Of a stretch of 64,000 nt of DNA, positions 3,099 to 62,901 are shown in pieces (positions within the stretch are counted from its first letter, which is position 1; each line of letters starts with the position of its first letter). Under the pieces are notes generated by a model. The model made no database searches and was not told the DNA's origin. It saw nothing but the letters and a program-made list of their open reading frames with translations. The DNA comes from Tubiluchus corallicola (Eukaryota; Animalia; Priapulida): positions 186,001-250,000 of the forward strand of contig JAQGDQ010002372.1 of assembly GCA_030141605.1 (NCBI GenBank), written 5' to 3'. Both the position numbers and the translations under genes were made by a program.

Positions 3099-6000
3099 AT
3101 GATGAGGACAGCAGCTGCTGCGCTTTTGTTTCTGCTACTGAAAGTAAGTATTCCTACCTAAATTTATATTTTGCAAATAAAATCTAAGGATTCGTCTGAT
3201 AAGCGAATTACTTTGCTACAAGACATGCATTGTAAAATGCAAGGATTTTATGTTTATAATTTAAAATAAAATTGATATGTTCTACTGTTTGCTATTTATT
3301 ATATTTTTCTATTATTATTAGAATTTTCACAGCCAGTATGAAGAGAAAACAGTGTAACTTTGCTATTTTCAGTTGTTGCGTTAGTTTTAATGTTACGTAA
3401 GGTTGATATGCTTCTATGCCTACACAATAGCGTAGCTAGATCTTATCGTCCCCGGGTGGCACTTAAAATTTGACACAAGTGAAAATGTTTATGCAAAAAA
3501 ATTTAGATTTGTAATGTTTAGTAGTATTGCCTCGCATATGCGATAATTTATAGAGATAAAATAATAAAGAATTACCAAAAAAAATCAAAAAATTGGTTTA
3601 GGAAGAAATCCCCGTACATTTCAAAACTAAAAGTTACGACAAGCAATGGCTTCTTCACATGGTAACTCAGCAAAGACTGTTATTGAAGACTACTTTGGTG
3701 CGACTTCCAAGACATCGCTGTGTTTACCTAAGAGTTTTAGACATCTTAGCAGTTGAGCAAATGAAAGTTTATTGTTGTCAAAATATTTTAAAGATAAAAT
3801 TGAGATTAGTTTTCGTAAATTATCCGCAAGTATAATTCTACGAAATGAAGATATTTCTGACGGAGATATGCAAAAACTCGCAAACTAGGTTGGCGAGCCA
3901 AGAACTTACTGACTTACAATCATTATTAGATAAATAGAACATATTGTAATGACATCAGTGTTACATCAACCAAGCGCCTTTTTCAGTTGAATGAAATTGA
4001 TCAAAATGCCGCTCTCTGAAAAGTGCTGCCCGGACTTTTTAGCTACGTCATTGTATACCCACGCTTCTCTCGTTCATTTATTTATACAGCTAACATGGAG
4101 TTATCCCACACTAGTAATGCGAGAAATTGCTCGTCCACTTCGAATTCCAAACCAAGACAATTCGGAATACTACCGCGACGTAGAATTAGGAGAAGCAAGG
4201 AACCCTGAAGAAAGTTTGCGAGTTTTTCATCATAATGATTACTACGACATTCCAGGCCAACGCACATATGGTTCCGAAATCAGCAAGGTTGATTATGACA
4301 ATGACAAAGACGAAGTAACATATGATACCGTTGTTAGTAAGGTATTGAATTGAACTGGGTTAAATTAGACTGTATTTGTCTATTCGGCCAATCAGACATT
4401 TATCACTAGCTGCTACAATTATTTGCCATAGATGAAATCAAGATAGAAATATTGTTGCGGAAATTCTTAAAATGAATTTTCTTTCGATATAAAAACCGCG
4501 TATACGTATTGTTTTATAATCTGCATTTGTGTGTTGCAGATAATAATAATAATAATAAGACTCACAATAATAATAATTTGTTATATTTCTTAGCCGCATC
4601 TATTAGTCCTTTAGCATTTTGTTATTAAGTTACAATTTAGTAGTTCAATCTGTTGTTTTTATAATATACTGATATCACAACTATTTTTAAAAAAAGCAAA
4701 ACGTGTTACTTGGAAATTCTCGATTAGTTTGCTAATTTTGGTTTGTGCAAGTCAGAGTCCATTTGCGCACTATCTTGACGTAACGAGAAGAACTCGTCAC
4801 CAAACAGTCTTACTGTGCCCTTACTTTAATTACTTTGGCTTGTGCTGGAATAACATGCATCGTGAGGTAAATTTTTTTTTGATTTTGCACATCTGCGTCA
4901 AAGAATGTTGCTTCTTAAGGATTTTGTCATGGTAATTTCAAGGTACAAGAAAAGACTACAGACAATGGTTCACCAAAAAAAGGGAATATTTATGCAACAA
5001 TTAAAAGATCACTGTGCACAAAAATTGCATGTTTCAGTATTTTTCTATATAAGGGTCATTCACTGGTACCTAAGGCATTCATCCTAAATCTCTAATTCTT
5101 AAACACCTAAAATTACTGTTTCGTAACTAGAGAAACAGTACTTTCTGTAGTGATGATATCACACATGTGCACAGTTACACACCGTATGTTTCTTTTTTTG
5201 TTGTATTATTGCAGTATGTTGGCTAGAGCAACAAATTCTAAATTCTATAATCTAAGTAAATCATATTGGTACGTGTGTGAGTGCTGACGTGAAAGTGCTA
5301 CTACTACTTGGCCGTCACTTGCTACCGTAATTATATAATTCGGTAAATTACACATACTGGGCATATATTCTACATGTAGATATATCATTAATTATGACAG
5401 TGCAGTGTCCCACATTAGCCTTGACTCAGAGGATAATTTTAGATTTTAGAACACAGACAACCGAATATCAATGACAGCTTTTAATTAATAGTAACGGACG
5501 GTAACGTCTCTTTAAATACAATTATCGATATACCTGAATACGATTTCTGTTGTTGTGATTACGTCAAACAGTCCTGTTTGGAACCTCATTGTTTGATGGG
5601 TTTGGCGTAGCAAATTTAAGAGCAAAACAAATCGAAAAATTGTTTGTGTCATTGAAGTGGCAGGCCCTTTATTTAATTATTTCATGCTCTTAATAATGAC
5701 AATAGAATATGATAAATTTATATATTCATTTCGTTTTTCTTATCCAGTTTCGCTCAGATGAGCAAGACGGCGACAGTGTAAAGCATTACAACCGGAAGGT
5801 CGATTTTAGTGATACTAGAAACGATTATTTAGTTACTTTTGAAGAAAGTGGAAAGGAGAGAAAACTGAATAACGACACTACCGGCAAGTAAGTGGCCTGT
5901 CATGCGTGGTGACAGCTTTCTTCTTTGTGCTCTCTATTCTATTGGGTGCTCGCATTCATCTACTGATGTGGCTAGGTTAAAAACTGCTATTCCCTTGCCA

Positions 6001-8790
6001 GATCATATACATATAATGGGTAGTCTCAGGTGACTTTTATCGTTCACTAATTAGTATTTACTAATCAAAAAATGATAAACTTATTGTTGGATCTATGTAC
6101 CAATAAAAGTTTAGATTATCAATACCTGAAAAAACCTGGCCATACGTGATATCAGTATTCCACCGCATTTAGCTAATTTTTATTTAATTGATAAAAATAA
6201 ATTTATTGGCCAAGTTTAACAGGCAAAGTACCTTGTTGCATTGTCACGCTACCAGCACTGTCATATCGTGATCATGTAACTATTGTTTGCAGCTACTTCA
6301 GTCACCTTGAAGCAAACCTTGAAGACGAGACACACGGTGGCGATAGAAGTTACAGTTACACCGTTCCTAAAGAGTACGACGTCAGAGGGGAAGAAGACGA
6401 TCAATTTAGACTGCCAGACAGGGCGCTATTTATCGATAGAGGTGGATTAAATTTCACAATTTATATTTCAATAGGTTCAGAAGTGTGTAATTTTGCACTA
6501 TACCAAGCAGCATGTATGCAGATCATGTTAATACTTGTGGTTTCCTGGGTAAAGGGCAATGTGCATAAACAACTGCTGCTAGAACCGTGTTCTACAATTA
6601 TGACAGTTTGGGCCAGTAATTTGAAGCCAAAGCAATTGTCTTGACTTACACGATTTTGTTTGCCTTGCCTTATATGACATTAGTATGTAAGATAAGGCAA
6701 GGCAAGGCATGGTAAGCTAACGTAAGATTAGGTAAGGTAAGGTAGGGTAAGGTGAGGAAAAGTAAGGTAAAGTAAGAAAGATGAGGTAAGGTAAGGTAAG
6801 GCAAAAGACGAATTCTATAAACATCTACAACGTTCGTTATTGTTGTATTTCTTTTATTGTCTTTATTGCAGAAAAATTTTCTGATAACAAAAATGATGAC
6901 GGCGATAACAACCCCATTTCAGAACAAGACCCGCCAGTTCTTCTGGAACAGTATTACGTCATCATGAAACTAGGAGATGCTCCAGTAGATTATAATGCAA
7001 CGTCAATTGATGTAGAAAACCAAGACTCATTTGACGAACAACAAAGAGGACATGCGGCTGAAAGTTTTGCAGGACACGCAAGAATGATCACAGATGAATT
7101 AAATCTAGAAGACACTTCTCGTGGTATTAGGTATAAATTTATTCCACATGAGGGAGATCCAACGTTTTCATTTATTCCATCGAGTATTGCGAAATTGGCA
7201 AACAAAAACTTCAATCCAGCTATATCTCAAGAAACGTCATCAAGTTTCTTTATACCTATGCGTGAGACTGGACAACCTTTTGAATATATTCAACCACAGG
7301 CTGAAGATGGCGGAACAGATCAGTATAGTAAACTAGATGGAAGCCATTTTTTCAAAACTCTCGGAGTTCCGAGCCCAGACCACTTTCTGGTGCAGCCAAA
7401 TGATGAGAGATTCAGTATCAGAAGTGAGGTGAAACTACCTTTTAGTACAGGGTTCGAAATAATACCAAATTCTAAAGTTGAGAATGTAAATAAGTTCGAA
7501 GTCATTCCAAACGAATCCTCTGCACAAAGCACCTTCCCTGATAATGAGCAGACAGATGAAAACGAAAATAAAGTGAACTTTAGCCCAAGCATAAAAAGTG
7601 AAGAAGATTCTCCACTCAGACCCGGATTTCACTTGTTACTCACTGGTCACATTAATGGCGCTTCTAGCGATACATCAGATGATGCGACCGCAGACAACAT
7701 TGACGATCGCTATTTATCTTTTGAAGGTGAGTTAGCTCACCTCGGTAATGAGGATGATGCAGACACAATTGCTCCCGTTTTCATGTACGTTAGTGCCTAC
7801 CCTTTACACAATGCCAAAGCAGAGATAATAAATGAAGAGCTTACAGAGTATGATGGTGAGCAACCTGATAAGGCTGCCAGAGCTGTTTATGTTGTTATGG
7901 TTCCCATGACTGGAGATACATTACTAAACTACTCTGAACAAGATCATAACGCTAGGTATTCAGAAGGGTTGGAAATAATTCGCCAACCTGCTCTAATTGA
8001 TGACATTCGTGAGACTGGATTTTACAATTTGGACTCTGATGAGAACGCTGCAGTCGTACCTTCTGAGGATCTCTCGAGATCCATTGCGTTTTCTGGCGAT
8101 TCTATAGACGATACAACTGTTGACAATGTTGGTTCTTCTGACTCTCCTCATGGATATTATCTAAGGTAAGACACAGCGCACACACAACAAAATGTCTTCA
8201 AACATCAAAAATCACATTCAAGCAACATTTGAAGCACGCTAGTACAAGCTAGAGATCTGACGATTATAGAAGTGGAAACTTATTTGTACCCGGCTTTACT
8301 TTAGCTAGGAGTTATCAGACACCAACGGCAGCTTTAGGTGGAATGTGCGTTTTTTGTTCACTCAGTCATTATCGCAACAAATATTAGCATTAAAAATACT
8401 CCCTTTCTGTCTGAAAAATAGATATTTAGGGAAACGTTACTGGAGGACTTTAATAAAAGATACCGACAATGATGTGAGTGAAGCAACTCTGAAAAATTTA
8501 TACAAGCAATGTACTTTTTTCTTATTGCTTTTCTTTTCATTAAATACAAGATGAAAAACAAAGCCAGGAAGTCTTTGCTTTCTGATTGTAGCTATGTAGA
8601 CAGGACTTAAGACGAAAGCGTTGTTAAATTTTTTATTCGTTGTTTCAGGGAGGAAAATTATGATGGCTATGTTGATGATGAGAACAATTTCTACTCTTCT
8701 ACTGATGATATACCTAACAATACGCCTGTGGCGCAATTTCAATATAATCGGCAGGGAGTGTTTGTCAGGCTTCCTACTAATGTTGAATAA
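3099..8790 (+). CDS. Secreted gene A: 673-aa acidic, cysteine-free secreted protein with the shared N-terminal domain and a long acidic extension (6 exons)
   Basis: Exons 3099-3143, 4090-4341, 5748-5887, 6293-6441, 6872-8165, 8649-8790. All introns are GT-AG with matching phases (0,0,2,1,2); total 2022 nt, open to TAA. Signal peptide MMRTAAAALLFLLLKLTWS|YP. Contains NDYYDIP and LPDRALFIDR. AATAAA near 8829. Confidence 0.85.
6710..6803. repeat. Degenerate (GTAAG)n microsatellite in intron 4 of gene A
   Basis: ggtaaggtaaggtagggtaaggtgagg... runs. Confidence 0.7.
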
Positions 8791-9341
8791 TATGAACATT
8801 ATTATAAAATTAATTATGAAATTTTAAAAATAAATCATGTTATATATGATTTTGTATCAATTCGCAGACATGTCGAGCTGCACTGCAAAACGAGCTTCTA
8901 GACTGATGTTAGACTGACGAAAAATGTTAAATTACTTTTCACAATAATATTAATTTTTATTGTAACTGACATACGTCTTACATAAACCAAGCAAAAATCA
9001 AGAAATAAATTTGCTTTAAACAATAACCTAAAGAACTCAATGTCCTTCTATTCTATGTTTACCAGTTTGATGACATTGTGTTTTGAACAAATAAACTAAT
9101 ATGCTGACTAAAAACCGTTGTCTTGTTGCAATTCACTTTTTTATATTTTGTCTTTATTATCTGATCTGCTGTCTCTTATCTTTTTGTTATTGTCTTTGCC
9201 AGGACTACCTTGCCTTGCTAACGTCGTCCTTATTATTTTGACTTTTCTATCTAATGATTTTTCTAATTTACGATTTTTTTATTTTCGCTATCATTTTTCT
9301 TTTACTTTTTAGCACTGCAAAAATCTACTTGAGAAATGCAT

Positions 9342-11096
9342 ATCCACTGACAGCCTAATGGAGATCACTTGTTTGTCACTCTTAAGTTTTTTAATTGGAG
9401 GCGTTTGTAGAGGCGTCCCCAAAAGAAACTTTGATCTACCTTACTGGAGGATCTTTAGTCCTTACTGAATAAAGATCAATGGCTCTTGAATAATAAATTT
9501 AATCATGGAGATAACGTATTTGTAATTCTTAAGTTTTTGAATTAGAGCTGTTTGTAAAGGGCGCCCCTAAAAGTACCCCCAAATCAATGTAAATAACATT
9601 TTGAGCTCATCAATGGCTCCTAAATAATGAATTTTGTAAAGGAAATCAGTCATAAGCTTTTTAAATTGGAGAAAGCCATTTGTGGAAGGCACTCCTAAAA
9701 AATTCCACCCCATTAATCAATTTAAATCACATTTTAGCATATCAATGAAACTTTGCGAAAACATTTTTTACTTCTTATGAATAAAGATCAGTGGCTCTTA
9801 AATAACGAATTTGATCATGAAAATCACTCATCAGTTATTCTTAAGTTTTTAAATCAGAGCCGTTTGTAAAGGGCGCCCCTAAAAGTACCCCCCAATTCAA
9901 TGTAAATTACATTTTGAGCTCATCAATGAAACTTTGCAAAAATGTTCTTCACTCCTTACTGAATAAACATCAATGGCGCATAAACAATAAACATTACATA
10001 TATGTATTTATAATTAATTCGTAAGTCTTCAAATTATGCTTTTTTGTAGAGGGCGCCCCTAAAAAGTCTCAATATCAATTTAAATCAGTCTTTCAGAATA
10101 TCTGTCAAATTTTGCAAAAGTTTTCTTTGCACCTTACTGTGTAAAAAGGACATCCAGATGGTCAACTTTTCAATTTATCCAGATTGCGGGCGTTTACAAA
10201 ATTCACAATCAACAGCAATTAGAGAACTGATGGTACTGTCATCGTTGCTAATACACAGAGAGCTTTTCAAAACCTACTCGACTGCTTTTCGCTTTGACAG
10301 CAAAAGAATTTGATATCACTGTTGATTCTAAGCAAACAGTTAACAATGTGTCACTCAGACTCACCTACTCAAAGTATTTTCCAGGTTAATGTAGTAGATA
10401 TACCCATTGTTGATAATTTCTGCTATCTTGACAATACTATAATATCATCTCTATCTGTGGGACTAAGTGCCAGATACGGAAATTCTTGAAAAGTTAAACA
10501 TGGGTGATTTATTCATACAGCTGCACAGGAGGCAACTGGAAAAATCTTGTAGTCTATGAATAATCGTAACTATATATTTAAAAATGTCATCTGTTACGGT
10601 ACATTTAGGTTAAAAAATTTTTATTTACTTTAAGGGCATCAAATTCATTATTAGAACTACTAATCTTTATCCAATAAGGTGTAAAGAACACATTTTCCTA
10701 AAGTTTCATTGATTGCCTCAGAATATGATTTAAATTGATTTTTGGGTATCTTAATTAAGGGCAATACTTAACCTTTAAAAAATGCACCAATTTGAAAATA
10801 AATTATAAATTTAGCCTTCACTGGTTGTCTGAAGTGTCGTATAAATTTATATGGGAGCTATTTTAGGGGCGCCCCTCAAAATGTTATTTAAATGGAATTA
10901 AAGGTACTTTGGGGACGCCGTTTACAGACGGCTCCAATTTCAAAAGCTAAGAGTGACAAATTACGTGATGTCCATGACAAAAAATTATGAAAGAGAGGCT
11001 GATTTTTATTCAGCATGGTGTAAAGAACATTATTGTGAAGTTTACTAATGTTCTGAAAGCGTGATTTCAGCTATCACCAATAGACTATCAATGGAT
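9342..11096. mobile_element. Foldback/MITE-like element with terminal inverted repeats and inverted arrays of subterminal repeats
   Basis: atccactgacagcctaatgg (9342-9361) pairs with the reverse complement of ccaatagactatcaatggat (11077-11096). Repeated gggcgcccctaaaag units at 9.4-10.1 kb are mirrored by ttttaggggcgccc / ctttggggacgcc at 10.86-10.97 kb. Confidence 0.65.
10210..10480 (+). mobile_element. Degenerate RTE-like LINE reverse transcriptase fragment nested in the foldback element
   Basis: Broken frames read TAIREL..VIVANTQRAFQNLLDCF..SKEFDITV..VDNFCYLDNTI, resembling the region around and after YADD in RTE-type RTs. Confidence 0.5.
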
Positions 11097-12599
11097 TCCA
11101 GTACTCAAATGGTTTGTACGCGAGATGTAATATAAACCTGCGTCAGGTCCCGCAGATACGCTTTTCCTTGTGATTATATTGTTTAGTATATGCAGCTGTA
11201 ATCTGCATATTTTTGAAAGTTATCATTACACTTGACGTATTGTTCAGCAGAAGAAAAAGCTTTTCCTCACCGAAAATAAATTTTCGCCCGTGTTTTCTCG
11301 TGCCCGTTTCCTAGCATTTGTTACAATTAAACACGATTGATAACGAGTTCTTGAATTGCTATAAACCTATAAAACTATTCAAGACAAATTTAATGACTTG
11401 CATGTTTCTCTAGCTTCGTTTTTGTAATGCCACCATACAAACTATTTATGGGGTGTCTCAAAGATCACTATGCACTTTGGTTTCTAATCTTCTTTTTAAT
11501 TTTTCTCCAATCTCAGCAAGTCCTTACATGTATCAAAAAGGTCCTTTGACAATTATTTTATTTATCTTTGACAAGAACCGCCGTTGCTGTTTGACGACAG
11601 TAACCTTAGAAAGTAAAGCGCAAAATCTCATCCGCCAAGAGCTCCTTCGATGACCATCTGAAGTTTAGTGGTAATTCAAGTAGCATATGGACCAGTATTT
11701 TTTTCATTATTAGCAATGTAATTTTTCAGCAGCCCTTATTCGCTACTCATGGGGTGGGAGAGGCTTTCTCAATGTAAGGTACCGACACTGGCTCCGTCTC
11801 CGAGGCTCTTTCGACTCATTACAGATTTGATGGATTTAACAATGCAAAATTTTTACAGGGCTACAACAGGCAAAAATAACGCATCTTCGTGAACCCGAAA
11901 CAACAATTAGAAGTCATAGTACAAACATTTGAATGGTAGTACTTGCTGATGTTCGAAACTCATGTGTTAGTCATCGGCAGAAATGCTTTGACGAAAGTAG
12001 CGAAAATGGCAAACGCAATTAGTGTAGTAGTCCGTTTCGGATTCACGTCTAATTCAATTGAAAGAATTGGCAAAAAGTTTATCTGTGCCTATTTTCAAAC
12101 ATTTTTTTGTTGAAAGAATAGAGAAAAGAAAATATAAAGCGTCTGATAACTTCTTCTGAACACCCTGTTTTGTAAATGTATGAAATGTTAATGACCATTA
12201 TCGTACTAGTATTATTATACAATTTCTTGTTAAGCATTTGTTGCAAATTGTTAAACTAAGATTGAATAATGCGTTTATAAAGTCCTACCATTTTTCGCAC
12301 CCACTGCTGGTACCGTCCGAGATTCTACAAGCCGAATCCAACACTAGGATAAGGCCTTTAAAGAATTTCTGAAAAGTCATGCTTATTTAAATGTTCATTT
12401 TAATTTCCAAAATGCCATAATTATGAATGTTACAGTAAAACTCATATGCTATTACTGCAAAAAAGAGAACTATTTAGTGTTTTGTGGACGTCAAATATTA
12501 TAATCCCAACGTCATATAAACATTCAAGAAATTGAGTTGTAGGAGATCGTTTTGATAAAAGCCATGTTGCTCTTTTAACAATAAATCTTTTGTTTTTTT

Positions 12600-13100
12600 A
12601 AAGGTGTAGCGCACTATCAACAATATACATGTCCATTAATTTACGGCTTATACACGTGAGTGATACTTGCCTGTATTATACTGGCCAATCTCCCTTTGTG
12701 TAAATAGGTATATCTTCAGCCAGTTTCCAAACATCAAGTATTACGCCATCTATAAATGACTTTTGAAATATAAGTAACAATGGAACACATACATTATTCG
12801 CCATGTTTTTTAATGCCACCGGTATGCCGTCCGGATTCAGTTTTTTCTTTACATCAGTTCACTGGTTTCAGTTCACTTATCATTTTTAATTGCAGCTGAC
12901 AAGAAATCAACAACTGTCAACTATGCATGCACCGGCACCTTACTTTCCACAATAGCACTCCTTTATCCTTAACAAAATGGGATTCAAAGCATTTGTCAAA
13001 AGATTGGGTTTAGGCTTAGCTTTAGCCATCTGTAATAACAGAGCCGTATCGTCTTCTAAAGGGGATACCCATTAGCACGACATCGTTTCTTTCGAACATA
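12600..13100 (-). mobile_element. Degenerate LINE (CR1/L2-like) RT N-terminal fragment
   Basis: Minus strand reads PDGIPVALKNMANNVCVPLLLIFQKSFIDGVILDVWKLAEDIPIYTKGD..YRQVSLTCISRKLMD. This is the GPDGI...WK.A...PI.K.G...YRPISLT signature of non-LTR RTs. Confidence 0.7.
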
Positions 13101-14482
13101 ATTAAAGAGCTTGTTGAGATCACCTTTACACAGAACTTTATAGCGAGACTGATGACTGACGAAGTTGGGTGAATTCCTCCAGCAAGTCCTGAATTGAACC
13201 AGCCAAATCATCACCATTTTACCTCGTAGGCGTTTACAGGATTTACGATTTGGTAACCTGTCATGGAGTGCCCTAGCACACGTTAGCTTAGTAACTCATT
13301 TCCGACTGCTTGGTATGGACCTGATATATGAACCAAACTTGACGTTTCTCTATATGAAAAAATTATTGATCTACTGACTACATAATTATGGCTTTAAATA
13401 AAGTACCTATTGGCATCACTGGTAAATAGACAAAAGTCTAGTTTGCTACAGTGTGGCAACGCAGAAAACGCAATACATGCAACAAATTTTATTAACAAGA
13501 AAATTTTTAAAAGCGATCTGAAAAGCAGTATTACTAAAAAGAGTAATAAGAAAATCTATGCTGCCGTGCATAAAGGGCAGGAAGTACAAAATTTTGCTTT
13601 TGAAAAAAATGCAAATAAATTTTTGCATGACGTTTGAAAGTACTAATGAAGATAAAATTTTCTACACAACATGAGCATATAATTAACTGCTAAGTAATAT
13701 TAAATAGATTCAATACAACCTACTGCCTTGGTAGATAATGATCTTTAATTTTCCTAGATAGCCAACTAGCAGTACAGCTTCTTTTAAGTTTATGATTGAG
13801 TGGAAGATAAATGTGTACGATGATAATGCTATTTAGTCTGCAACAAAGGCGAAAATTTACTGTTTTTATATTCTGTACAGCAAGTGCCTAAGTATGAAAT
13901 TTCATTATAAAGGAAGTTAGATCACCATCTGTTGGTAAGAATGCATCAAAATCTCAATGCTGTTAAAATTGTAGTTACTGCGTTTTATTTTCTGTTGGGC
14001 AGTATGCCGATCCAAACTCGTACCGGCCTCAGTTGTAAGCTGGGTAGTTCTTTTCCCTTTAGCCTTACTGAAAGGTCAAACCATGGTCTTTGACCCCCTA
14101 ATCAACGCTCCTCAGCATCAAGTAATTCACCAAATTAATGTATTGTCATTTGATCAAAATTACAGCCAACGAGTGAGCTGTAATTACGCGCTAGTTTCGG
14201 GTTTGAAAACAGTGATACCCTGTTTGTCATTCCTGCAATTGAATCCCGAAATTACCAGGTTCTGACGCTGGTTCACCTTGATCGCCCTGTTTCAGTTCAT
14301 CCCACAAACTTTATCAGGTTGATCTGATGTCATCCGTGATGCCAAATAGAAAACTACTAATTAGGTCAAGCCTTGGAGAAATAGAATAAAAGTGAAATCC
14401 GATCACTGCAGTATCACAGTTAGCTGAGGTGACAGCGGTAACAACGTTGAGTTAGAACAAAGTTAGAAAAAAGACAGGAATC

Positions 14483-15953
14483 ATGCTTGCTTTTGTTGGA
14501 CTTTTTGCATTTCTATGGGTAAGTGAAATTTCTATGTCAATTTTTATTCCAGTTCAGCTAAATTTTAGGTTACTTTTAATATTACAAATTTAGCTGCCAA
14601 TTACTTATAACTTTATTTCATTTTATTAAAATGTTTGACAGTGGTTTGAAAATGTTTTGAAAAAGTTAACATCGTGACCAGAAATAAATCTGTAAAACAT
14701 GGTATTTGCTACATGAAAATAACGCAATTCAATGCATCATTGCGGTTTACAATTGACGTGTAATCCCGTGATAAAATCGTAATGCTGAAATGCCTGAACC
14801 ATTTTTGCTTGTGTGTTAATTAGCTGTTACTTACTCATTTCGAAGTTTATTTATACTACTAAAAGGAAAATGTATTTGCAGATAAGCACGTCTGCTATGT
14901 ACATGCCCCCATCATACTACACGGAAATGCGGGGCAATGGTTTACCGGAAAGAGTTCTAAAACATCCGGACGCCGAGTATGCGTCCGACACTGTACGAGC
15001 AAAACTTGCCGACGAAGACGAACGCTTCAGCCTTTTTGATCGAAACCTGTACTATGATATTCCCAAAGACCAGCGCTTCAAGTCCAAGGAGAGGGCTACA
15101 ACTTACAAGGACATTGATGATGAAATTAGCCACAATACGTATCTCCGCCGTGCTAGACTGGATGATTACAATGGTCCAAATCTGAGACAGTTTGAAAGGA
15201 GGGAACAATTCGAAAACAAACCAGCACAGCAGTTTTTCAGCGATCAGGAGAAAGGAGAACACATGACAGCTTTAACGGGACACGGAGTAGGAAGGTATAA
15301 GACGATTAGCCAGTTTCTTTGACTGACTGATTGGTTGATTGAATGAATTATTGATTGATCGAGTGATAGACTTTTTTATTTGGTTGATTTATTACCGTAT
15401 TGCGAAACAGGTTGGCCGGACCGACTGAAAGCTCCATGTCCTAAGCCCTTCTGTAGGCTTGTAAAGTATTGCACTTTCAATACGAATTTGAAGGTCTAAA
15501 CCTAAACCCAAAGAGCATCTTCAGCAGGGGGCAAAACGACTAACTTGAGGATAAATAATTGTTAGTAAAAAAAGTAACACAGTGAAACTCAGACATTTTG
15601 ACTGAAATGTAAGAAAACGGCTAAAATAAAGTAGATAGTTTGACAAGAAAATTACATTACTGATGTTTTTCAGCTACCGCAGAAACCTTGGTTATATTCT
15701 TGGACCAGAATCGGGCAAATACAACAGAGTTCTCGACTACAGATACAGACCTGGCTTCGACGAGAACGACGATGGCTCTTCCCTTCCTGGTCGGTTGTTC
15801 TTCACAAATAGAGGACGCTTCCCAACTGAGGAGGAACAAGCGGAAGCCGCCGAAATTGCTGCCAACTCTAACAGATTTGGCATCCCCAATCTTGGCAACT
15901 TGAAGAGAGTTGGGGCATTAGAGAGACGGTTGGGCTCGCCTAATATTATTTAA
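14483..15953 (+). CDS. Secreted gene B: 242-aa cysteine-free secreted protein made mostly of the shared domain (3 exons)
   Basis: Exons 14483-14518, 14882-15294, 15674-15953 (phases 0,2; 729 nt). Signal peptide MLAFVGLFAFLWISTSA|MY. Aligns end to end with gene C (NGLPxRVLxHP, LADxDExFxL, LYYDIPKD, YLRxARLDxYxGP, DYRxRPxFD, LPxRxFFTNxGRF). Confidence 0.9.
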
Positions 15954-16586
15954 ATGCTGTGTGATTATGAAAGACAAACCAGGGCACGTATTTTATTGTT
16001 CAGCACTTTTCTATTCTCAGGAAAAATTCATATAGTTCCACATTTTTATTAGTAATTCGTTTTTTACAGTATGAAGAATAATTTGTATGGTAATTTGCTT
16101 ACCGTTAAGCCTTGTGTGTTATTAGAGTTTTCAGAGAATGTTTTAGTTAAAATTCTTGTTTTAAAAATGTTAGCAAACTCAATTGCCAATTTACATTCAG
16201 CAAATATCAGTGAAAACTATGCTCACTTTATTATGTAATATTATATAAGTTTATAAATAAGAGTAATTTACTTAACCAGGTAAAATCAATAAATCTAAGT
16301 ACCACTTATGCTTATAAATATTGTTTTTTGTACACTCTATTACTGTAGCACCATAGCTTCTTATGCAACGCACGGAGCTTTTTTTAAAAAAATTCAAAAT
16401 TTTTTGCAATACGTCATTACACCACAACACAATTTAGAGTGAATGCGTCAAGTTCACTATGCTACAAACAACTATACTAAAAATATTAATAATGATACAT
16501 ATACTTCTATCTGTACTAGCAGTCTAGCACAAGTGACTGTCGCTTTAAGAAATGTTTTTGTAGTATAACGAGAATTAAGAAACATG

Positions 16587-19021
16587 TTAATATCTTCTAG
16601 AATAAGTTTTCGTATATCGTTTCGCAGTTGGACGCACATCAGAAAGAGATCCATAATGGGGAAGTCCAAAAGTTATCTTTTTTGCCTGACTGGAATGCGT
16701 TTTTGTTCCACGCGCTGAACCAAAACGGCCGTAATTAGTGAAAAAGCTGCGATCCGGAAGGATCTCCCCGTCATCTTTGTCATCAAACTCTGGTCTGCTT
16801 CTGTAATCAATCGCTCTCACGTAGCTTCCATTTTCTTCTCCGTTTTGAAAACTCAACTGCCTACGGTAACTGAAAATAAAGGTAAAACATGTAACATAAG
16901 TTAGCAAAGCACTAAAGTTGTAAGCAGCACACGAAGGATGAACAAACAAATGCAAACAGATAAACCAACAAACAAAGAAAATGAAGTGCAAATCATGCTG
17001 AATACGCTTGACTAAATAGTACCAGCATCTATATCTCTGCTTCTACTTGGCAATGGATCAAGTTACTCAACATAATTATTAGCATACCCAATAAAATTGT
17101 TATCATTGAGTACGGTTTGATTGTTGGTAATTAGTCAAAGTAACTGATGAGCCAGGGCCAATAAAATGACTACCTGTTGTTTAGCCGCTAAAGTAATGTA
17201 ATTAACGTTTCAGCAAAACAGCAGCTTAGCGGCCGTGAAGCTGATAGTTAATCAACTGACAGTCAGTAAATAAATACGAAATGGTGACTTACGTGGTGAA
17301 CGAATACACTCAGTTGATGTGTTACCGTGCTTAAACCATAAAAAATATAGTTAACGAGCTTCAAACAGAATATAAGAAGTGTTTATGTAATGTTTGATAC
17401 ATTTGTTTTTACTACAAAGTGCAATGCTCATTTAAATCGGTTCGTCAAGCATATAAACTTTATGCCCAGCATACATTCTTAACAGTAAAAGGACGTATTA
17501 GTTTAGAGATTATTGGAGTCACTGTAAGCTTTCCAGAAAGACACAATGCATTCGCAAACTGCTCCCTGTAGTGGATTGTGAACAAAATCGCCAAAACATT
17601 ACAATTACAAATTTCTTCCCTAAAGAATGACAACCCATTGTAAATAGTAAACACAGTACTTACTTTCCCGTTCCACTACCGGATAAGTCAGTGATATGGT
17701 TACCAATCTCGGCATTCCCATAATATCGACTTTCTGGATTGTTCTCATAGAGGTCGCTTCTCTGGTAATGACGCCACAAGGGACCTTGATATTTGTCCAG
17801 TCTTGCTTTGCGTAGGTAGACATCTTGTCGAATGTCCTTGTCAGCATTCAGGTAAGCCATGGCTGCTTCTTTTGATCCGAATTTCTCATCCTTGGGAATA
17901 TCGTAATACAGTTTTCTTTTATAAAGGTTAAATGATTCGTCGTCATCCGCAAGCTGTCCTTGGATGATGTCTGACCGGAACTGCGCAGTGGGATGCTCCA
18001 GGACTCTAGTGGGCAGCCCGTTATCATCAAAAGCATTTGATTTTTGCTGCTGCCCACGGCTTCCAAATGTCTTATATGGTGTACTACTGGACTTCTGGCT
18101 GGGTGATACCTGGAACTGTTTCAAATGAGTGACCCCATTGCTTGACGTCGACGTATTCCAAGCGTAAACGCCTTTGTCGTCGTGGCTATTTCGTCGCCCG
18201 CCATAGGAATAAGCAAAGGTGACCTGAAGTCCGAAACAGCAGAGTTTAACAGAGCTTGCAGTTTGCATAATTGTTTGATTAATTGCACACAGTTTTTTCT
18301 AGGTGTTGTAAAACACGTGAAAAATAGAAAGAACAAACAGGCAACAAACGACTCTCATCAACGAATTATAATTTCAGTGAGAAAAGAAAAACAACTGTGT
18401 AAAAATTTGTCGCATATTTACTTATTACAAATCATGAAATCAGTCTGTATTTTTTCCATATTATTGTGTAAACAATAAACGTATAAGACATAAAAATAAC
18501 TTTTTGTGTAATTCAGCACTCAGTGACAGGATGCCTATTTAATGAACGAGGTTGTGGTGTGACTGGAACCCAGCTCATTATCACGTCTAACATGAGAGAC
18601 GGAACCGACAGAGGTGTCTTAGCCATGTCTGGATGCAAACATACACTCTTCCTGAAATACGTAAATAGCAGCGAACCCCAGCCCCGCGAAGTACTCCTGG
18701 AGGTCACTTTTTCTGACAATGCTTGGTGTCGCTCAACTTTTGTCTTGCAGTTATTTCCCTGACCTTAAATTGCATTAGGCACAATAAAGTAGTATATATT
18801 GGAAAAGCAATGATTAAATGCATTTACTCAATTGGTCAATTTAAAATAAAACCATTTTCACACAAGAAATACCGAACCCCATATGTGCGCTGTGCTCTAA
18901 CCAACTGTAATGTTAATACTTACGAACTTTTTTACAATATACGAAAATAACTAGTTACTATACTATTGTAATTTATATGTCTACTTACTGTAATGCAGAG
19001 GAAAAATACGAATACCTTCAT
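16587..19021 (-). CDS. Secreted gene C: 291-aa secreted paralog of gene B, convergent with it (3 exons)
   Basis: Exons 19021-18989, 18223-17664, 16869-16587 (phases 0,2; 876 nt). Signal peptide MKVFVFFLCITVTFAYS|YG. Intron positions match gene B. Candidate TATA cttatatataag at 19106-19117. Confidence 0.9.
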
Positions 19022-22410: not shown

Positions 22411-25400
22411 ATGAAGTCTACATTGGTAGCTGTTGCACTGGTTTTGGTTATGTTCCAGCTTCATGGTATGTTATTACTTACTAAAATTTTCGCTTATATC
22501 GTTAAAGTTTTGTGCATAAGATCACTTTTGGGGGGTAAGCTGTTCAGAATATGTCTACTACGGAATCGCAGTTAACAACTTTTTTAGCTATGTGAGTTGT
22601 TAGCAATAAAAGCCAGAAAAAGACCTTCCCTTTTGAACTGTTTTGTCTCTTTGTTGCTAAGCTACTTTCAGTCATTTCTATGCAGTGGAAGAATTCTTCC
22701 GTTTTAAAGTTAATTTCATGGTATTTCGTTGTATGGGGGATATTAAAATGTGTTTGCTTACTTGGCAACACACAGTGACCAGAAACTCATAAGTCATGAT
22801 TCTTGCACTTGTTATTTTCCTTATTCAGATAACAGGTAACAGTGTTATTATTCAAGAGTTTACTTTAATATAACTTTATTGTGTTACAACTTTAACAATT
22901 ATTATGTTACATTTACGTAAGTTCACTTTTTATTTTGACGTGTTTTTGCTCAGCTGTCTAACTTCACATTGCTCAAGAACGTAATTTTCAGTTTACTTGC
23001 TCAACATATTAATACTGTTTAATCTAATTATTACGTTGTACGAGGAATTGCGGATTTGCCGTCAAGTTCTATTGATATAGAGACTAAAGAGAAACAAAAA
23101 AACTCATATACTATTTACAGATTCGCGTCTAAGTAAAACACAAATTTAATTTTTCCATCTGGCCAAATGTTCCATCGCTTTAATTATACCTCGTGTTGAA
23201 AAAAATTGAAAAAGGAAAAGTAATTTCAATAAATGCGCCCGCAATTAAAAAAGGCACATCAACGTTCTTTGTTTTGTGGCCAGCTGCTCCAGCACAATGG
23301 AAATGGAATAGTTATAATTAAAAAGAATCATAAATTTTCAGAAAATAGTCATCTTTTAATATTATGCTAAATACGTACATTTGTTAATTCATCCATATCA
23401 TTGTTCGTTCGTTCTTTTATACTATTATCAATACATTAATTTCAGTGCAAATACTCAGTATTTATATTTAAATAGGCTTATACACAATTTCAGTTGAGTT
23501 AAAAATTGTACCTGTATAATTACGAGTGTCAAATTTCTATGTATTGTATTAAATTTACCGAAAAAGAAAATCTAAAATTTTATCAATAGCATGTAAATGC
23601 GTTGGTATAAAACGTTTTATCTCCTTTACTTTTCTGTCACAGTGTTATTCATTAAAAAGTAAATACTGTTTGTAAATAAAATGCACTACAACCTTACATA
23701 AAATCAAAAATTCTTTGCATCCTTTGCTTATGATTTAGAAATGCATAATTTAAATATTGATGACATTTTCGCTCGCTTGTAACCGAACTGCTAGTCAAAA
23801 TTACTTCCTAATCAATAAAAATATTCTGTATTTCAGATCTCCTGTAAATGACAGTTTAAAACTCCAGGAATTTTTGAAAGTACCTTTCATAGTACATCAT
23901 GCTCGGTTTTTCTTTTGATCTGTAAACCTGTTTACATAACCATAATAATTAGCATGTTTTTATTAGTTAGCTTCGTCTGAATTTAGCCTATTATTTGACT
24001 TATTTTAACTTACCTGAATATAGATTTCTAGACTTAATCGCTAGACATATGTTCTAACTTTAAACAAACTAAGATTTTAACACTATTAAATGTAATATTG
24101 TGTGGCAGTTACCGTACTGTTCTTTCGTAGCAGACGTGCATTCAGTACTTCTAGCAACTTTACACAAAAATAAAAACAATATAATCACACTAGAAAAGAG
24201 AATCTGGTATAAAAATTATTAATGTCACGAACCTCCTGAATAGGAGATAACTCCGATCATTTAGCCGAGAAGCAATTTCTTCTCCTTTTTTATAATAGGA
24301 TAGGTTAATTCTTTCCCGGTATTGATTAACTGACTGAGTAATATAAATAAACTAATCAATGAATAAATGAATAGATGGATTGGTGGCTAATCGAATGAAA
24401 AATAGTTGAGTGAATGATGCATGAATGGATGGAAAAATGAACGAGTAAATGAATGCACGAACGAGCCAACGACTGAATGAATGAATGAACGAATAAACGA
24501 ATGAATCAAAGAACGAACGAACGAGTGAGTAGTGGGTGAGTGAGTGAATGAGTGAATGAATGAATGAATGAATGACTGAGTGAGTGAGAGAGCGAATGAA
24601 TGAGTGAGTGAGTGATTGAGTGAGTGAGTGAATGAGTGAGTGAGAGGGAGTGAGTGAGTGAGCAATCGAGTGAGTGAGTGAGTGAGTGAGTGAGTGAGTG
24701 AATGCGTGAGTGAGCGAGCGAATGGGTTAACGCATTAACTGATTAGCAAAGATATATTAAAAATTAAGCTTTTGATTCCCAAAACGCCAATTAACTTTAA
24801 GATTTCCGCGTGGATGAAACTTTCTTGTTTAAATATAACCAAATGGCGATTTCAAAAAGATATCAGAGTAAACTTCAAAGGAGATCACTGAAAAATTTTG
24901 CATTTTTTTTTATTTTATGAATAGCTTCTTACTAAGGGAAAAGCTGTACCTGCTGTAATTAACAGGCTTACTGAATATGTAGTTAGGTTATCTTTGCAAT
25001 TTGCGCTAATATTGTTTACCAAGCTCAAACGAGTTTTGAGGACTAAATGACTTCTAGGCGGGGCATAATAAAAATAAAACGTTGAACGTATACCCCTGAA
25101 GTGTTGCCATTTCTGGCCAATTGCTGATGCAAAGAAGCCTATGGCTGAGGGGAATTTTGTTTGGAAGACCGTCTTCGCCTCTATATTTTAACAGGATCGG
25201 AACTTTGTGTCGATCCTTTCCTAGACTGGTGGGTAAATGCCGTATTTCATGAAGAAAATCATCAACGGGCTAATAAACCAATTTTTATTACAGTTTGACC
25301 AAGTTTGTACGATTTTTAACTTAAACGTAACCACATGCACCACAACCACAACCACATACTACTTCCTTATAATTAATGTTATAAATACATTTTAGACCGT

Positions 25401-27222
25401 TCTTTAAACTGTTTATTTTTATAGAAAAATGTCGTAAAAATTCCAATTTTTTGGTTAATCTTAAATGTCCATTAAGCGATTAAGCAGAAACCTGAAAGTT
25501 CCACTCATTAGAGCGGCTCAATAATTATGTAATGACAAAACATATTAAAAGAATAATTCTAATTAAATATTTATTATTTGTTTTTCAGTCGCACGTGGTG
25601 AATATACAACAACACCATCGCCTGACACGCCTACTCTTGTAGCTGGGTACTACGAACATGGCGATGGTGATGAAAACGGCAGTGGTGAGGAAGATAATGA
25701 TAAAACATCAATAGTGCTTACCAGATACTACGGTCCCAGCATCAGCACCACAACAACTGCTCCTGAGCAACGGGGTTACGTGCTCCGCTCTAGAACATCA
25801 TCAGAAAAGTCACAGGATCGGATACGCCAGTATTATCATAACAACGGCAATGACGGTAATGATGACAATAACGACAACGATGAACGCACACAAAAGCGTG
25901 TAGTCTACATCCGAAGAGGCTACAGTGGTGATCACCATGTTGAAGATGATGATGGCGATAACGATGACGACAACGATGAACAAACGCAAAGACGTGTAAT
26001 CTACATCCGAAGAGGCTATGATAATGGCGACGATGATGAAGAAGATGATGATGATGATAACGAAGCAAAACGTCGGATTTACATTCGTAGGCACAGTAGC
26101 AGTGAGAATGGTGACAGTGGTGATCACAGTGACCTCGATAACGGCTACAGCAGAGTGACTCGCAGACGTAACAGATTATATCTTGATAATGGCGATGACG
26201 GCGATGATCGGTACATTTACTTTAGGGGAGATGAAGGAGATGGCAATAGTTATGAAAGCAGACGTCGGGTTTACATTCGAAGAGAAGAAGCAACAACTGC
26301 AGCACCACAGCGTGGTTACTTTTACTACAGAGAAGAAGAACCAACCACTACTGAGCAACCAAGTGGTGAGGAAATCTACAGGCACTACTTGAGGAACATC
26401 AAACCAAGATTGGACGAAACTCGCCGAAGTAATACACGCCGACGCCAAGCTCATGATGGTGAACGTCGATATTACAGATTGGTTGAAGAAGAACCTGAGT
26501 CACAGGGTTATTATGCAACCCCTGAGCAGGAAAAATCCATAAGCTTTCGTCGCCGTTATGATAGCCGCGATGAAGACATCATTCAAGTACCAAAGTATCC
26601 GCTAATTCGCAGGAGATCTGGTTCAGATGATAACAGAAAATCCAGCGGGCGTCGAGTGTACTTACCAATTGAAGCACCAACTACCACTGAGAGACCTGAG
26701 ATTCGTCATTATTACGTGCGTTCGGAAGAGCCAGCAACTACTGAAACGCCTCGTCAACAACATTATATTCCTCGTCGAGTCTACAGGCCTGCTGAGTCAA
26801 CAACAACTGAAGCACCAAGCCACAGTGGCTATTACAGAGCATCTGAATCTGCGAAAACTCAGAAATCAAGCATTCGTCGCTTTTTCAGACCAAGCAACGA
26901 GCGACCATCAAGGAAATCGAGCATTCGACGTTTTATCAGAATAACTGATGAACCCAGACATGAAGAGCCAACATATCGTCAATATTACGAACCAGCCGAT
27001 ATCAAAGAAATCAGAAGGCCCACCGTCAGACGATTTTATGAACCTGCTGAACTGACTACCACCGAAAGACCGTCGTTTCGTTATTATTATAGGCCTCCTG
27101 AGCCAACTACAACTGAACAACCTAGCCGACCGAGGTACCCAGCACACTACAGGTACTATTTCAAAGAAACAACAACAACGGAACAGCCTACTACACGTCG
27201 TCTCTACCACCACGGTTACTAG
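22411..27222 (+). CDS. Secreted gene D: ~562-aa Arg/Tyr/Asp/Glu/Thr-rich low-complexity secreted protein (2 exons)
   Basis: Exons 22411-22465 (in-frame upstream ATG at 22399) and 25589-27222, joined by a phase-1 GT-AG intron. Signal peptide MKSTLVAVALVLVMFQLHVARG|EY. Exon 2 is in frame with the 502-aa ORF. TATA-like ttataaga at ~22337. Confidence 0.88.
24350..24725. repeat. Compound (GAAT)n/(GAGT)n microsatellite in the gene D intron
   Basis: gaatgaatgaat / gagtgagtgagt runs. Confidence 0.9.
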
Positions 27223-28516: not shown

Positions 28517-28523
28517 TCTCTCT

Positions 28524-28564
<41 letters not shown>

Positions 28565-28571
28565 TCTCTCT

Positions 28572-28639
<68 letters not shown>

Positions 28640-28640
28640 A
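28517..28640. repeat. (CT)n microsatellite
   Basis: Run of tctctc about 120 bp long. Confidence 0.95.
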
Positions 28641-29024: not shown

Positions 29025-32502
<3,478 letters not shown>

Positions 32503-41100: not shown

Positions 41101-42623
41101 CACCAATCTGTTATTAGTAAATAACAGCAAATGAACGTGCTGGTGCACATTTAACAGGTTACACTGTTATACCAACATGAAAATTCAGTGAACTGTGATT
41201 GTAATTTAAACTATAACCTTACATAAGTTTTGAATATCCATGAAAACATCTCAACTAAAAGCAACCAACTAGGTTTTGTGTTCTACTTTATTTTTTCTCG
41301 GTGGAAACACCTGATTAAAAATTCATGTGGTTAGATAGAGAATTTCACGGGCTTTCTAATTGTGTATAATATGATGAATTTTGTTGCCATGGTAACATGC
41401 AATAATTGTAGAACTATCACATGTGAACTAGACCAGACATGGCAGCTGTGGAATTGTAAGCATGTTTTGCTAATTGTTTCTACTACAGTTTATTTAATAT
41501 TAGTCTGCAGTGACTGATATTTATACATAGAATAGACAAGAATTCTACCTCAAAAACTGCAGTAAATGCTGTGCCTAAGCGAATGTTCTAAGAGCGGTAA
41601 TTTGGCACCATTTCTTTGGTGCACACTATCATCGGACAGCATGCTATATGTACATATCACTTGTATACAAGTCAATGCAACTCTTTTTATACACCTAAAT
41701 ACTAAAGCAGCCACAGTAAGCAGCAAGCAAATGTGAAACCGAGACTCCTAATAAAAGTTCTTTTTGGGTACAAAAGAAATTTACAAAATATATTATATGA
41801 CACAAAACTTCTAATAGCATTAATTTTGGTTTTCATCTTAAATGTTCCAAATACTAAAAATGTCATTTTTGTCTTGCACGCACATCTAGCAAGAACCACC
41901 CGGTGTTTGGCGATGTTCGAAAATTAGTGACTCAGGAATTTACACGAGAGTTGTATCTAAACTTCGAAAGAATACAGGGTACTGATCCACCACAGAATGA
42001 AGTTAGCTGGGGAGAACGAGCACAGCACGAACTGAAGATGAGAGATTGCTTAAAGTTTGTTTGCAAGGTAGGCAACTAGATTTCTTACATTTTTTATTAA
42101 TTCAGTTATTAAAATGATTAGAGCACTTGAGTATCAAATTCCAGTTTTTAAATGTTTTTAAAACTACTGTGTCCCTTATCTTGTGCAAGCTTCTTTGTAT
42201 CTGTAGTAATTACTTATGTGGAGCTTATTTTCTGACGAAGATTTGATGATTATTGTTTGTTGATAATAAGCTTAAATATGCTTAGCAAATATTGTATACA
42301 CAATACCTAAAATATATTAACTACGTATATCTTTAGTAGACGTACAATAAATGAAGATCGTTTTTGTACCAAACATATAAACCTTTCTTGATATTACAAG
42401 TGAAATGTTGCATTTTTCATTTCTTTTGTTAGCTTATTCTTGTTGAAGGTTATAAAATTGTAACTCCATTAATTCATGAACAAGCAAGTTTTTTGCGAAT
42501 TTATAGCACAAATCTCATTGTCTTGTATTTTTCTGTTTTTAGATGTATGGAGAGGGTTTTGTACCACAGAACTGGACTTCGCAATATCAAAGGGTACTGC
42601 AATCAGAGGAAGGAGAAAATTAG
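35132..42623 (+). CDS. NSMCE3: MAGE-homology-domain protein, probable SMC5/6 subunit NSE3 (262 aa, 7 exons)
   Basis: Exons 35132-35218, 38241-38385, 38593-38672, 40282-40453, 40998-41043, 41890-42067, 42543-42623; phases consistent, 789 nt. MAGE motifs KVNEIVQYLL..PIKRADI, FGIKLVEL, GLLMTVLSFLFM, LWQFLKKLGI, HPVFGDVRKLVTQEF, DPPQNEVSWGERA. Exon 1 assignment is the least certain. Confidence 0.9.
36594..37378. mobile_element. Degenerate pogo/Tigger-like MITE in NSMCE3 intron 1
   Basis: Left end taccgtatatatgtgtgtacaagtcga with an internal repeat gtgtacaagtcgac; inverted tcgacttgtaca near 37344. Confidence 0.4.
39153..40098 (+). mobile_element. Tigger/pogo-like transposon remnant in NSMCE3 intron 3
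   Basis: TA|cagta ... tactg|TA termini. The internal ORF contains LHLLALSWSNVTEHTIQNWFTQARF, resembling the W..V...TI.N.F..A.F tail of DDE_1 transposases. Confidence 0.6.
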
Positions 42624-42943
42624 ACGGCATAAAAGCATAATATGATGATCTAATTTTAGTAATTTTGGTAGTTGCTATTGTGGTCTGAATCATTATTGTT
42701 CATAATTGCTCAACTCGGTGTGACTTCAAGAAAATGTTTATGCTAGTAATAGTGTGAAGGCTTATGATAGTGTAAAGTTCAGCAGAAATAACATAAATGA
42801 TTACAAAGCATTACAAACAGCTGTAAGTGATGAGGGTTTTAATTTGAGAATAGTTTTTTTTGTACAGATACTCTATAACCATTGACTGTATTCCAAATAA
42901 ACCTTTGTATACTACAAGTATTTGTTAGGTGTTATTTCAGATG

Positions 42944-50411: not shown

Positions 50412-51032
<621 letters not shown>

Positions 51033-60357: not shown

Positions 60358-60471
60358 GATATAAACTTTACCCAAAGTTTGCCGTTGCAGAATGCACTAA
60401 AACCTGACCTATCAGATGTTGACCCTCAACACTCAACCTACTTGACCCTCAATACTCAACCTACTAGAGAC

Positions 60472-62011: not shown

Positions 62012-62043
<32 letters not shown>

Positions 62044-62869: not shown

Positions 62870-62901
<32 letters not shown>

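What the first reader, a model, noticed from the sequence alone, without database searches (positions are those of the whole stretch)
4090..18223. Unrecognised ~170-aa domain shared by genes A, B and C, with a conserved intron
Seen: A (RPLRIPNQDNSEYYRD..EESLRVFHHNDYYDIP..YGSE..GN|YFSHL..DDQFRLPDRALFIDR), B (GLPERVLKHPDAEYASD..DERFSLFDRNLYYDIP..FKSKE..GS|YRRNL..DDGSSLPGRLFFTNRGRF) and C (GLPTRVLEHPTAQFRSD..DESFNLYKRKLYYDIP..FGSKE..GN|YRRQL..DDGEILPDRSFFTNYGRF) align colinearly. All three have a phase-2 intron in the codon before the same Tyr. B and C are the closer pair; A is more divergent and has an extra intron. Motif retention despite divergence implies purifying selection on a folded domain (inference).
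Basis: partly seen in the sequence, partly recalled or inferred. Interest (0 to 1): 0.85.

Follow-up and report, generated by a model that had tools for sequence, protein, structure and literature searches.

The report
Priapulid-type secreted beta-hairpin repeat family
Three neighbouring genes share an unnamed ~170-residue module also found in two uncharacterised penis-worm (Priapulus) proteins; it is built of short repeats, is predicted to form a flat beta-sheet, and likely serves as a secreted structural protein of the moulted cuticle, which is untested.

Summary
Genes A (673 aa), B (242 aa) and C (291 aa) have canonical splice sites, signal-peptide-like N-termini, a shared ~170-aa region (A-B: 0 of 2000 shuffles reach the score) and the same phase-2 intron before Tyr. 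No Pfam or PDB family matches. The genes are not orphans. A profile search of 1.84 billion proteins gave 8 homologues; the 2 named ones are uncharacterised Priapulus caudatus proteins, one A-like and one B/C-like. New here: the 'domain' has a 17.5/35-residue internal periodicity (0 of 1000 shuffles). AlphaFold2 independently places seven antiparallel strands at that spacing, with only moderate confidence (pLDDT 56, last third unresolved). Both sheet faces are hydrophilic and Arg/aromatic-rich, so it is not a membrane barrel; its composition suggests it may fold only on assembly. Best reading (about 50%): a lineage-restricted extracellular structural family, probably cuticular, clustered with two Tyr/Thr/Arg-rich secreted genes. 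It would work like the arthropod R&R chitin-binding sheet but is not an R&R member by sequence. No expression, location or binding data exist.

The parts
3099..8790 (+). Gene A, 6 exons, 673 aa, acidic (pI ~4.3): signal-peptide-like start, shared module (aa ~25-198), long acidic middle, conserved C-terminal ~50-aa motif
   Evidence: model; C-terminal motif shared with Priapulus XP_014665153.1, 0 of 500 shuffles
3099..3143 (+). A exon 1, hydrophobic signal-peptide-like segment, phase-0 intron
4090..4341 (+). A exon 2, first part of the module; ends at A's extra phase-0 intron
5748..5887 (+). A exon 3, middle of the module; ends at the shared phase-2 intron
6293..6441 (+). A exon 4, last third of the module
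6872..8165 (+). A exon 5, acidic, poorly conserved middle
8649..8790 (+). A exon 6, conserved aromatic C-terminal motif and stop
14483..15953 (+). Gene B, 3 exons (14483-14518, 14882-15294, 15674-15953), 242 aa: signal-peptide-like start, module aa ~28-199, short tail
   Evidence: 43-45% identical to Priapulus XP_014668324.1
16587..19021 (-). Gene C, 3 exons (19021-18989, 18223-17664, 16869-16587), 291 aa, basic (pI ~9.4), tail-to-tail with B; module aa ~79-248
22411..27222 (+). Neighbour gene D (22411-22465, 25589-27222), 562 aa, secreted-type, Arg/Glu/Tyr/Thr/Asp-rich; no shared module
29025..32502 (+). Neighbour gene E (29025-29070, 30755-32502), 597 aa, secreted-type, Thr/Tyr-rich; related to D, not to A-C

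Best explanation
A, B and C are old paralogues with signal-peptide-like starts and a shared module of about eight 17-18-residue units, which is predicted to form an open antiparallel beta-sheet and likely acts as a secreted structural protein of the cuticle of what is likely a priapulid-like worm. Shown: homology, shared intron, 17.5/35-residue periodicity, Priapulus homologues, hydrophilic faces, clustering with two Tyr-rich secreted-type genes. Predicted: seven-strand beta-meander with Arg/aromatic strands and Asp-rich turns. Inferred: after secretion the module, probably loosely ordered on its own, orders into a sheet on a partner. It would lie along chitin fibrils through its aromatic residues and/or join neighbours edge to edge through Arg-aromatic and Arg-Asp contacts. 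Tyr would allow later cross-linking, and the differing tails (acidic A, basic C) would tune the matrix. Odds: extracellular structural role about 0.65, cuticle specifically about 0.5, direct chitin binding about 0.25.
For: N-terminal hydrophobic peaks (KD9 2.6-3.0) and no later membrane segment (KD19 <=0.92) in A-C and both Priapulus proteins. No Cys in the module and no conserved dibasic or amidation sites. Lag-35 periodicity: z 5.1, 0 of 1000 column shuffles; 17.5 comb 0 of 1000; 78-column off-diagonal self-match, 0 of 150. AF2 strand starts at 15, 33, 47, 69, 84, 100, 120, mean spacing 17.5, pLDDT 63-79 in most strand blocks. All 12 strand faces scored have negative mean hydropathy; strands are R/K 18% and FYW 14%, turns D/E 34%. 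The only named homologues are from Priapulus caudatus, an animal with a tri-layered moulting cuticle (PMC5011709, passages). Tandem cluster with an intron inside each signal peptide, as described for Drosophila CPR genes (PMC2793513, passages). The R&R chitin-binding structure 9l0p aligns over 77 of its 77 residues at rmsd 3.5, the lowest rmsd among the 50 rows shown (Z 6.0, rank 35). An RR-2-bearing domain folds into antiparallel beta-sheet on chitin (PMC9999432, passages), and Arg-Tyr contacts drive beta-assembly in silk (PMC12772222, abstract).
Against: Nothing here shows tissue, stage or binding. The fold is moderate confidence: five models at mean pLDDT 56, 52, 42, 39, 35; a 3-sequence fold of C exon 2 gave 34; the Atlas model has pTM 0.40. 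Z 6.0 is within what unrelated beta-sheets give, and 34 rows rank higher, mostly porins. No R&R, GYR, YGD or AAP[AVL] motif in A-C or the 2 Priapulus proteins. His is low (1.7-2.6%). The strand/turn Fourier test alone is not significant (57 of 1000). Signal peptide, tandem array and an early intron are common to many secreted families. In DNA run X1, 7 of the 11 coding differences listed for gene A are non-synonymous (single contigs of depth 4-7, table cut), which does not look like strong current constraint on A. The window's phylum is inferred from homologues only.
Confidence: 0.5

Rival explanations
1. Gland-secreted adhesive or mucus proteins: Tyr/Arg-rich proteins (with D and E) that coacervate and cross-link as glue or burrow lining rather than in the cuticle.
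For: Tyr+Phe 10-14% in A-E and charge spread from pI 4.3 to 9.4. Priapulids have adhesive or sensory tubuli (PMC11793982, passage).
Against: No feature specific to glue was found. The column-level conservation and fixed periodicity of the module across species are tighter than is usual for low-complexity glues (my own knowledge).
Confidence: 0.15
2. Egg-envelope or yolk-associated structural protein in which beta-hairpin repeats build a chorion- or vitelline-type layer.
For: Vitellogenin-type sheets appear in the fold search (9kue Z 7.5 rmsd 4.8, whose vitellogenin origin is recalled; 1lsh Z 6.5; 9enr Z 6.2). Clustered, secreted, Tyr-containing repeat proteins are typical of eggshells (my own knowledge).
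Against: Those hits are at 5-10% identity and at generic-sheet Z. No vitellogenin or ZP Pfam hit.
Confidence: 0.13
3. A soluble globular carrier: the strands close into a small barrel or half-barrel, alone or as an oligomer, that binds a small ligand.
For: Seven to eight long antiparallel strands and strongly conserved positions. The Atlas model's structural neighbours include beta-rich proteins at TM about 0.5.
Against: No hydrophobic face for a core. All 5 copies lie on the disordered side of the charge-hydropathy boundary. No Foldseek match at E<=0.001 in PDB or BFVD.
Confidence: 0.12
4. A pore-forming or membrane-inserting defence protein whose hairpins form a transmembrane barrel.
For: The top structural rows are outer-membrane barrels (Z up to 8.1, rmsd 5-8). 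One fragment has a sub-threshold MtrB_PioB hit (E 0.006).
Against: All 12 strand faces are hydrophilic (mean KD -0.07 to -2.04, 14-46% charged). The matches reflect long hairpins only.
Confidence: 0.04
5. Neuropeptide or peptide-hormone precursors cleaved into short repeats.
For: Signal peptide and internal repeats; B and C each have 5 KR/RR sites.
Against: A has no KR/RR site; amidation signals are absent from A, B and both Priapulus proteins. Conservation is continuous along 170 residues rather than peptide-limited.
Confidence: 0.03

Closest known systems
Priapulus caudatus uncharacterized proteins LOC106809674 (XP_014668324.1, 241 aa) and LOC106807356 (XP_014665153.1, 650 aa)
   Same: Same module and signal-peptide-like start; 43-45% identity to B/C and 31% to A over the module. 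The 650-aa protein also shares A's C-terminal motif.
   Different: No function assigned; tails and A's middle are barely alignable. The two differ in longest contig, so they seem to lie on different scaffolds, and whether they are clustered there is unknown.
Arthropod CPR cuticular proteins with the Rebers-Riddiford domain (Pfam PF00379; PDB 9l0p)
   Same: Secreted, no Cys in the module, tandem array, intron in the signal peptide, aromatic-rich antiparallel sheet; structural alignment over 77 of 77 residues at rmsd 3.5, Z 6.0.
   Different: No R&R motif or Pfam hit. The module is about twice as long, with regular 35-residue hairpins and many conserved Arg/Asp. Chitin binding is untested and Z is at the level of generic sheets.
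Nematode epicuticlins (PMC9612446)
   Same: Secreted, Tyr-bearing, repeat-built, disorder-prone ecdysozoan proteins.
   Different: No GYR or YGD motifs; no near-perfect ~50-aa tandem repeats; predicted beta-meander.
Vitellogenin/lipovitellin beta-sheets and outer-membrane beta-barrel walls
   Same: Long antiparallel meander (Z 6-8).
   Different: rmsd 4.4-9.5 with identity <=13%; no hydrophobic face; small stand-alone genes.

Membership tests
CPR / Rebers-Riddiford (PF00379) | R&R core motif G-x8-G-x6-Y (pattern recalled) | tested here: not met
   0 matches in A-E and the 2 Priapulus proteins
CPR / Rebers-Riddiford (PF00379) | Match to the Pfam model | tested here: not met
   Not reported for 10 window exon products, 8 homologues or 12 of 14 rows of A7 at E<=10
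CPR / Rebers-Riddiford (PF00379) | Antiparallel beta-sheet fold of the R&R domain | tested here: inconclusive
   9l0p Z 6.0, rmsd 3.5, 77 of 77 aligned, rank 35; generic sheets score higher
CPR / Rebers-Riddiford (PF00379) | Signal peptide split by an early intron; tandem array | tested here: met
   PMC2793513 passages; not specific to the family
CPR / Rebers-Riddiford (PF00379) | Chitin binding and cuticular location | not testable with these tools
   needs a binding assay and proteomics
Nematode epicuticlin | GYR and YGD tyrosine motifs in ~50-aa tandem repeats | tested here: not met
   0 GYR and 0 YGD in 7 proteins; period is 17.5/35 and degenerate
Transmembrane beta-barrel / beta pore-former | One hydrophobic face per strand | tested here: not met
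   12 of 12 faces have negative mean hydropathy
Neuropeptide precursor | Conserved dibasic cleavage and amidation sites flanking repeats | tested here: not met
   A has 0 KR/RR; amidation motif in 1 of the 5 module-bearing full-length proteins
Vitellogenin / large lipid transfer protein | Sheet fold plus LLTP sequence domains | tested here: inconclusive
   Z 6.2-7.5 at 5-8% identity; no Pfam hit

The most novel reading that the evidence does not exclude
The module is the priapulid (scalidophoran) counterpart of the arthropod R&R domain: a chitin-templated beta-hairpin-repeat sheet, either convergent or descended from the same ancestral hairpin. It would be the first identified structural protein family of the priapulid cuticle and a handle on what the ancestral ecdysozoan cuticle was built from.
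Probability: 0.2. Interest if true: 0.7.

Novelty: new variant of a known kind. Interest (0 to 1): 0.38.

Why it matters
Cuticle structural proteins are well catalogued in arthropods (CPR and others) and nematodes (collagens, cuticlins, epicuticlins). My searches found nothing equivalent for priapulids, which are widely used as a proxy for early ecdysozoans (PMC5011709). An unannotated, conserved, repeat-built beta-sheet module with two old subtypes gives concrete candidates for cuticle proteomics and a seed for a new Pfam family. If the cuticle guess is wrong, it is still a valid new lineage-restricted secreted family. Such families are common in invertebrate genomes, which caps the interest.

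Tried and rejected
No whole genome is held for the window, so copy number elsewhere and synteny are unknown. Within the window, an HMM of the module over 2025 six-frame segments finds only the 7 module-coding exons of A-C (next hit E 1.6). The word-index homologue search found nothing with A1. With the 12-row A5 it recovered only 3 of the 8 known homologues and no new ones, so it is too insensitive to bound the family's range. The JGI metagenome scan with B exon 2 gave 160 pattern hits and 0 confirmed. Foldseek found nothing at E<=0.001 in PDB or BFVD. Atlas feature search: best 0.80, all rows under 0.9, three of five rows shown arthropod clusters; leads only. A second Atlas query did not complete. 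The homodimer prediction gave 'no answer'. No RNA holder was listed; X1 covers introns like DNA and X2 laid nothing on A-C exons. X2 matches nearby sequence mostly at under 95% identity. The domain tree has no starred branch, and a clade of A+B+C is not rejected (p-AU 0.20), so A/XP_014665153 orthology rests on the second shared motif, not the tree. Shared upstream k-mers among A-E are at chance level (191 and 172 of 300 draws). The attempt to place the organism through a neighbouring peptidase exon found nothing. Our-findings look-ups by sequence and by place were empty; the one by words gave only unrelated proteins. Literature: 0 papers name the two LOC/XP identifiers. Searches listed no paper on priapulid cuticle structural proteins (listings only; the library lacks most subscription journals; no supplements were read).
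Full report
Observation. The window is intron-rich animal DNA of about 35% GC. Exons joined at canonical GT-AG sites give three intact proteins: A (673 aa, 6 exons), B (242 aa, 3 exons) and C (291 aa, 3 exons, minus strand, tail-to-tail with B). Each begins with a short exon coding a hydrophobic signal-peptide-like segment and has no later membrane segment (judged by hydropathy, no signal-peptide predictor was available). The phase-2 intron before the aligned Tyr is present in all three, and A has the extra phase-0 intron inside the region. A-B and A-C similarity (about 26% identity over about 170 residues) far exceeds chance: 0 of 2000 shuffles, also with local shuffles. The similarly biased neighbours D and E give no signal. 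B-C synonymous sites are saturated (pS 0.80) while pN is 0.35, so constraint is clear but dN/dS has no finite estimate.

Relatives. Pfam and PDB sequence searches are blank (only sub-threshold single hits). A profile of the three exon-2 products against 1.84 billion representatives gave 8 hits (E 9e-32 to 5e-6). Two carry names, both 'uncharacterized protein' of Priapulus caudatus. XP_014668324.1 (241 aa) is 43-45% identical to B and C. XP_014665153.1 (650 aa) shares with A both the module and a second, C-terminal motif (E 9e-9, 0 of 500 shuffles). The A-type and B/C-type therefore most likely split before this species and Priapulus did; the tree itself is unresolved and does not reject an A+B+C clade. 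The other 6 hits are unnamed exon-like fragments. Four of them (P0011, P0013, P0015, P0017) lose homology exactly at the shared phase-2 intron site, and P0016 at A's extra intron site, in the same way the window's own genomic frames end. I infer that both introns are conserved in other species. That the window comes from a priapulid or close relative is an inference from these homologues. The wider range is not bounded, because the second search was insensitive.

Anatomy of the module. A profile self-comparison of 9 rows (P0016 and P0018 left out) finds a 78-column off-diagonal match at lag 35 (0 of 150 column shuffles). Lag analysis over columns 15-150, a range chosen after that result, gives z 5.1 at 35 and a harmonic comb at 17.5 (0 of 1000 each). 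A Fourier test on strand/turn propensity alone is not significant (57 of 1000). AlphaFold2 on the Priapulus module with a 14-row alignment gives a short helix and seven antiparallel strands whose starts average 17.5 residues apart; mean pLDDT 56, pTM 0.45. The last 56 residues are under 50 and were thinly covered in the alignment. The earlier 3-row fold failed. Strands carry Arg/Lys and aromatic residues, turns carry Asp/Glu, and none of the 12 faces scored is hydrophobic on average. All 5 full-length copies lie on the disordered side of the charge-hydropathy boundary. The best description is an open beta-hairpin-repeat sheet that may order only on a partner.

Fold comparison. Foldseek finds nothing significant. 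The wide VIA search returns generic barrel walls (Z up to 8.1, rmsd 5-8), vitellogenin-type sheets, and the R&R chitin-binding domain 9l0p (Z 6.0, rank 35, 77 of 77 residues, rmsd 3.5, the lowest rmsd shown). At this Z the match is a lead, not evidence of homology.

Context. The next two genes, D (562 aa) and E (597 aa), are secreted-type, Tyr-rich (D Arg-rich, E Thr-rich) paralogues of each other (0 of 500 shuffles). All five genes have an intron inside the signal peptide. Drosophila CPR genes are about 75% in tandem arrays and mostly carry one intron in the signal peptide (PMC2793513, passages), but this layout is not specific to cuticle genes. Priapulids have a tri-layered moulting cuticle (PMC5011709, passages); that it contains chitin is recalled, not read.

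Mechanism. Most likely these are secreted matrix proteins. The module would form a sheet on chitin or on neighbours, much as an RR-2-bearing domain folds on chitin (PMC9999432, passages) and as an R&R protein and a low-complexity partner co-assemble into a beta-rich matrix in caterpillar cuticle (PMC13507094, passages). Arg-aromatic contacts would act as stickers, as in spider silk (PMC12772222, abstract). Homology, introns, periodicity and composition are shown; the sheet is predicted; secretion, cuticle location, chitin binding and cross-linking are inferred. Against this: no expression data; no known cuticle motif; low His; a middling model; and 7 of the 11 listed coding differences of gene A in DNA run X1 are non-synonymous (3 lie in the module, 2 of them non-synonymous; low-depth single contigs, table cut). 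Glue, egg coat and soluble carrier remain live rivals; membrane pore and neuropeptide precursor are disfavoured by direct tests.

Papers seen: passages of PMC10280001, PMC5011709, PMC9612446, PMC5395146, PMC9999432, PMC13507094, PMC8588615, PMC2793513 and PMC11793982; abstract and outline of PMC12772222; all others as search listings only; no supplements. No paper in the library names the two Priapulus identifiers.

Verdict. A real, unannotated, lineage-restricted secreted family with a beta-hairpin-repeat module. It works like a cuticular structural protein by inference and is not a member of CPR or epicuticlin by the sequence tests made. Novelty: new variant of a known kind. Interest 0.38.

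Noticed in passing
window 22411-27222 (+) and 29025-32502 (+): Genes D and E: two-exon secreted-type paralogues with recurring Tyr/Arg blocks followed by Thr runs; no Pfam hit above noise; candidates for the same matrix.
   Followed up: partly
window 14358-14368 (+): RORE/HR3-type nuclear receptor site (pattern recalled) 125 bases upstream of B's ATG, with two more RGGTCA half-sites within 500 bases; window-wide 3 sites against 1.6 expected, not significant.
   Followed up: partly
window 38241-42640 (+): Multi-exon MAGE-domain gene, probably NSMCE3-like (Pfam MAGE E 0.04 on one exon; name recalled); run X2 shows a GT..AG joint 42065-42541 at about 88% identity.
   Followed up: partly
window ~42900-48700 (-): Multi-exon peptidase C45 / AAT-family gene (Pfam PF03417 E 1e-4 on one exon), the family recalled to include insect Tan (N-beta-alanyl-dopamine hydrolase); proximity to the cluster may be chance.
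   Followed up: partly
window 8649-8790 and end of 6872-8165 (+): A's C-terminal ~50 residues form a second conserved aromatic motif shared with Priapulus XP_014665153.1; no Pfam match for the Priapulus protein.
   Followed up: partly
window 6309-7244: Run X1 holds half-depth contigs 95-98% identical to gene A, likely a second allele or a close copy, with more non-synonymous than synonymous listed differences.
   Followed up: partly
window 56038-56880: Tandem array of an 81-base unit whose minus frame stays open for 257 codons; its Pfam hits are repeat artefacts.
   Followed up: no
window 60446-61270 and 61280-64000: Decayed LTR-retroelement-like fragment (recalled resemblance) followed by about three copies of an ~880-base tandem unit.
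   Followed up: no
window 50417-51010: A (GT)n microsatellite of about 590 bases; further simple repeats near 24350-24730, 28520-28640 and 30480-30740.
   Followed up: no
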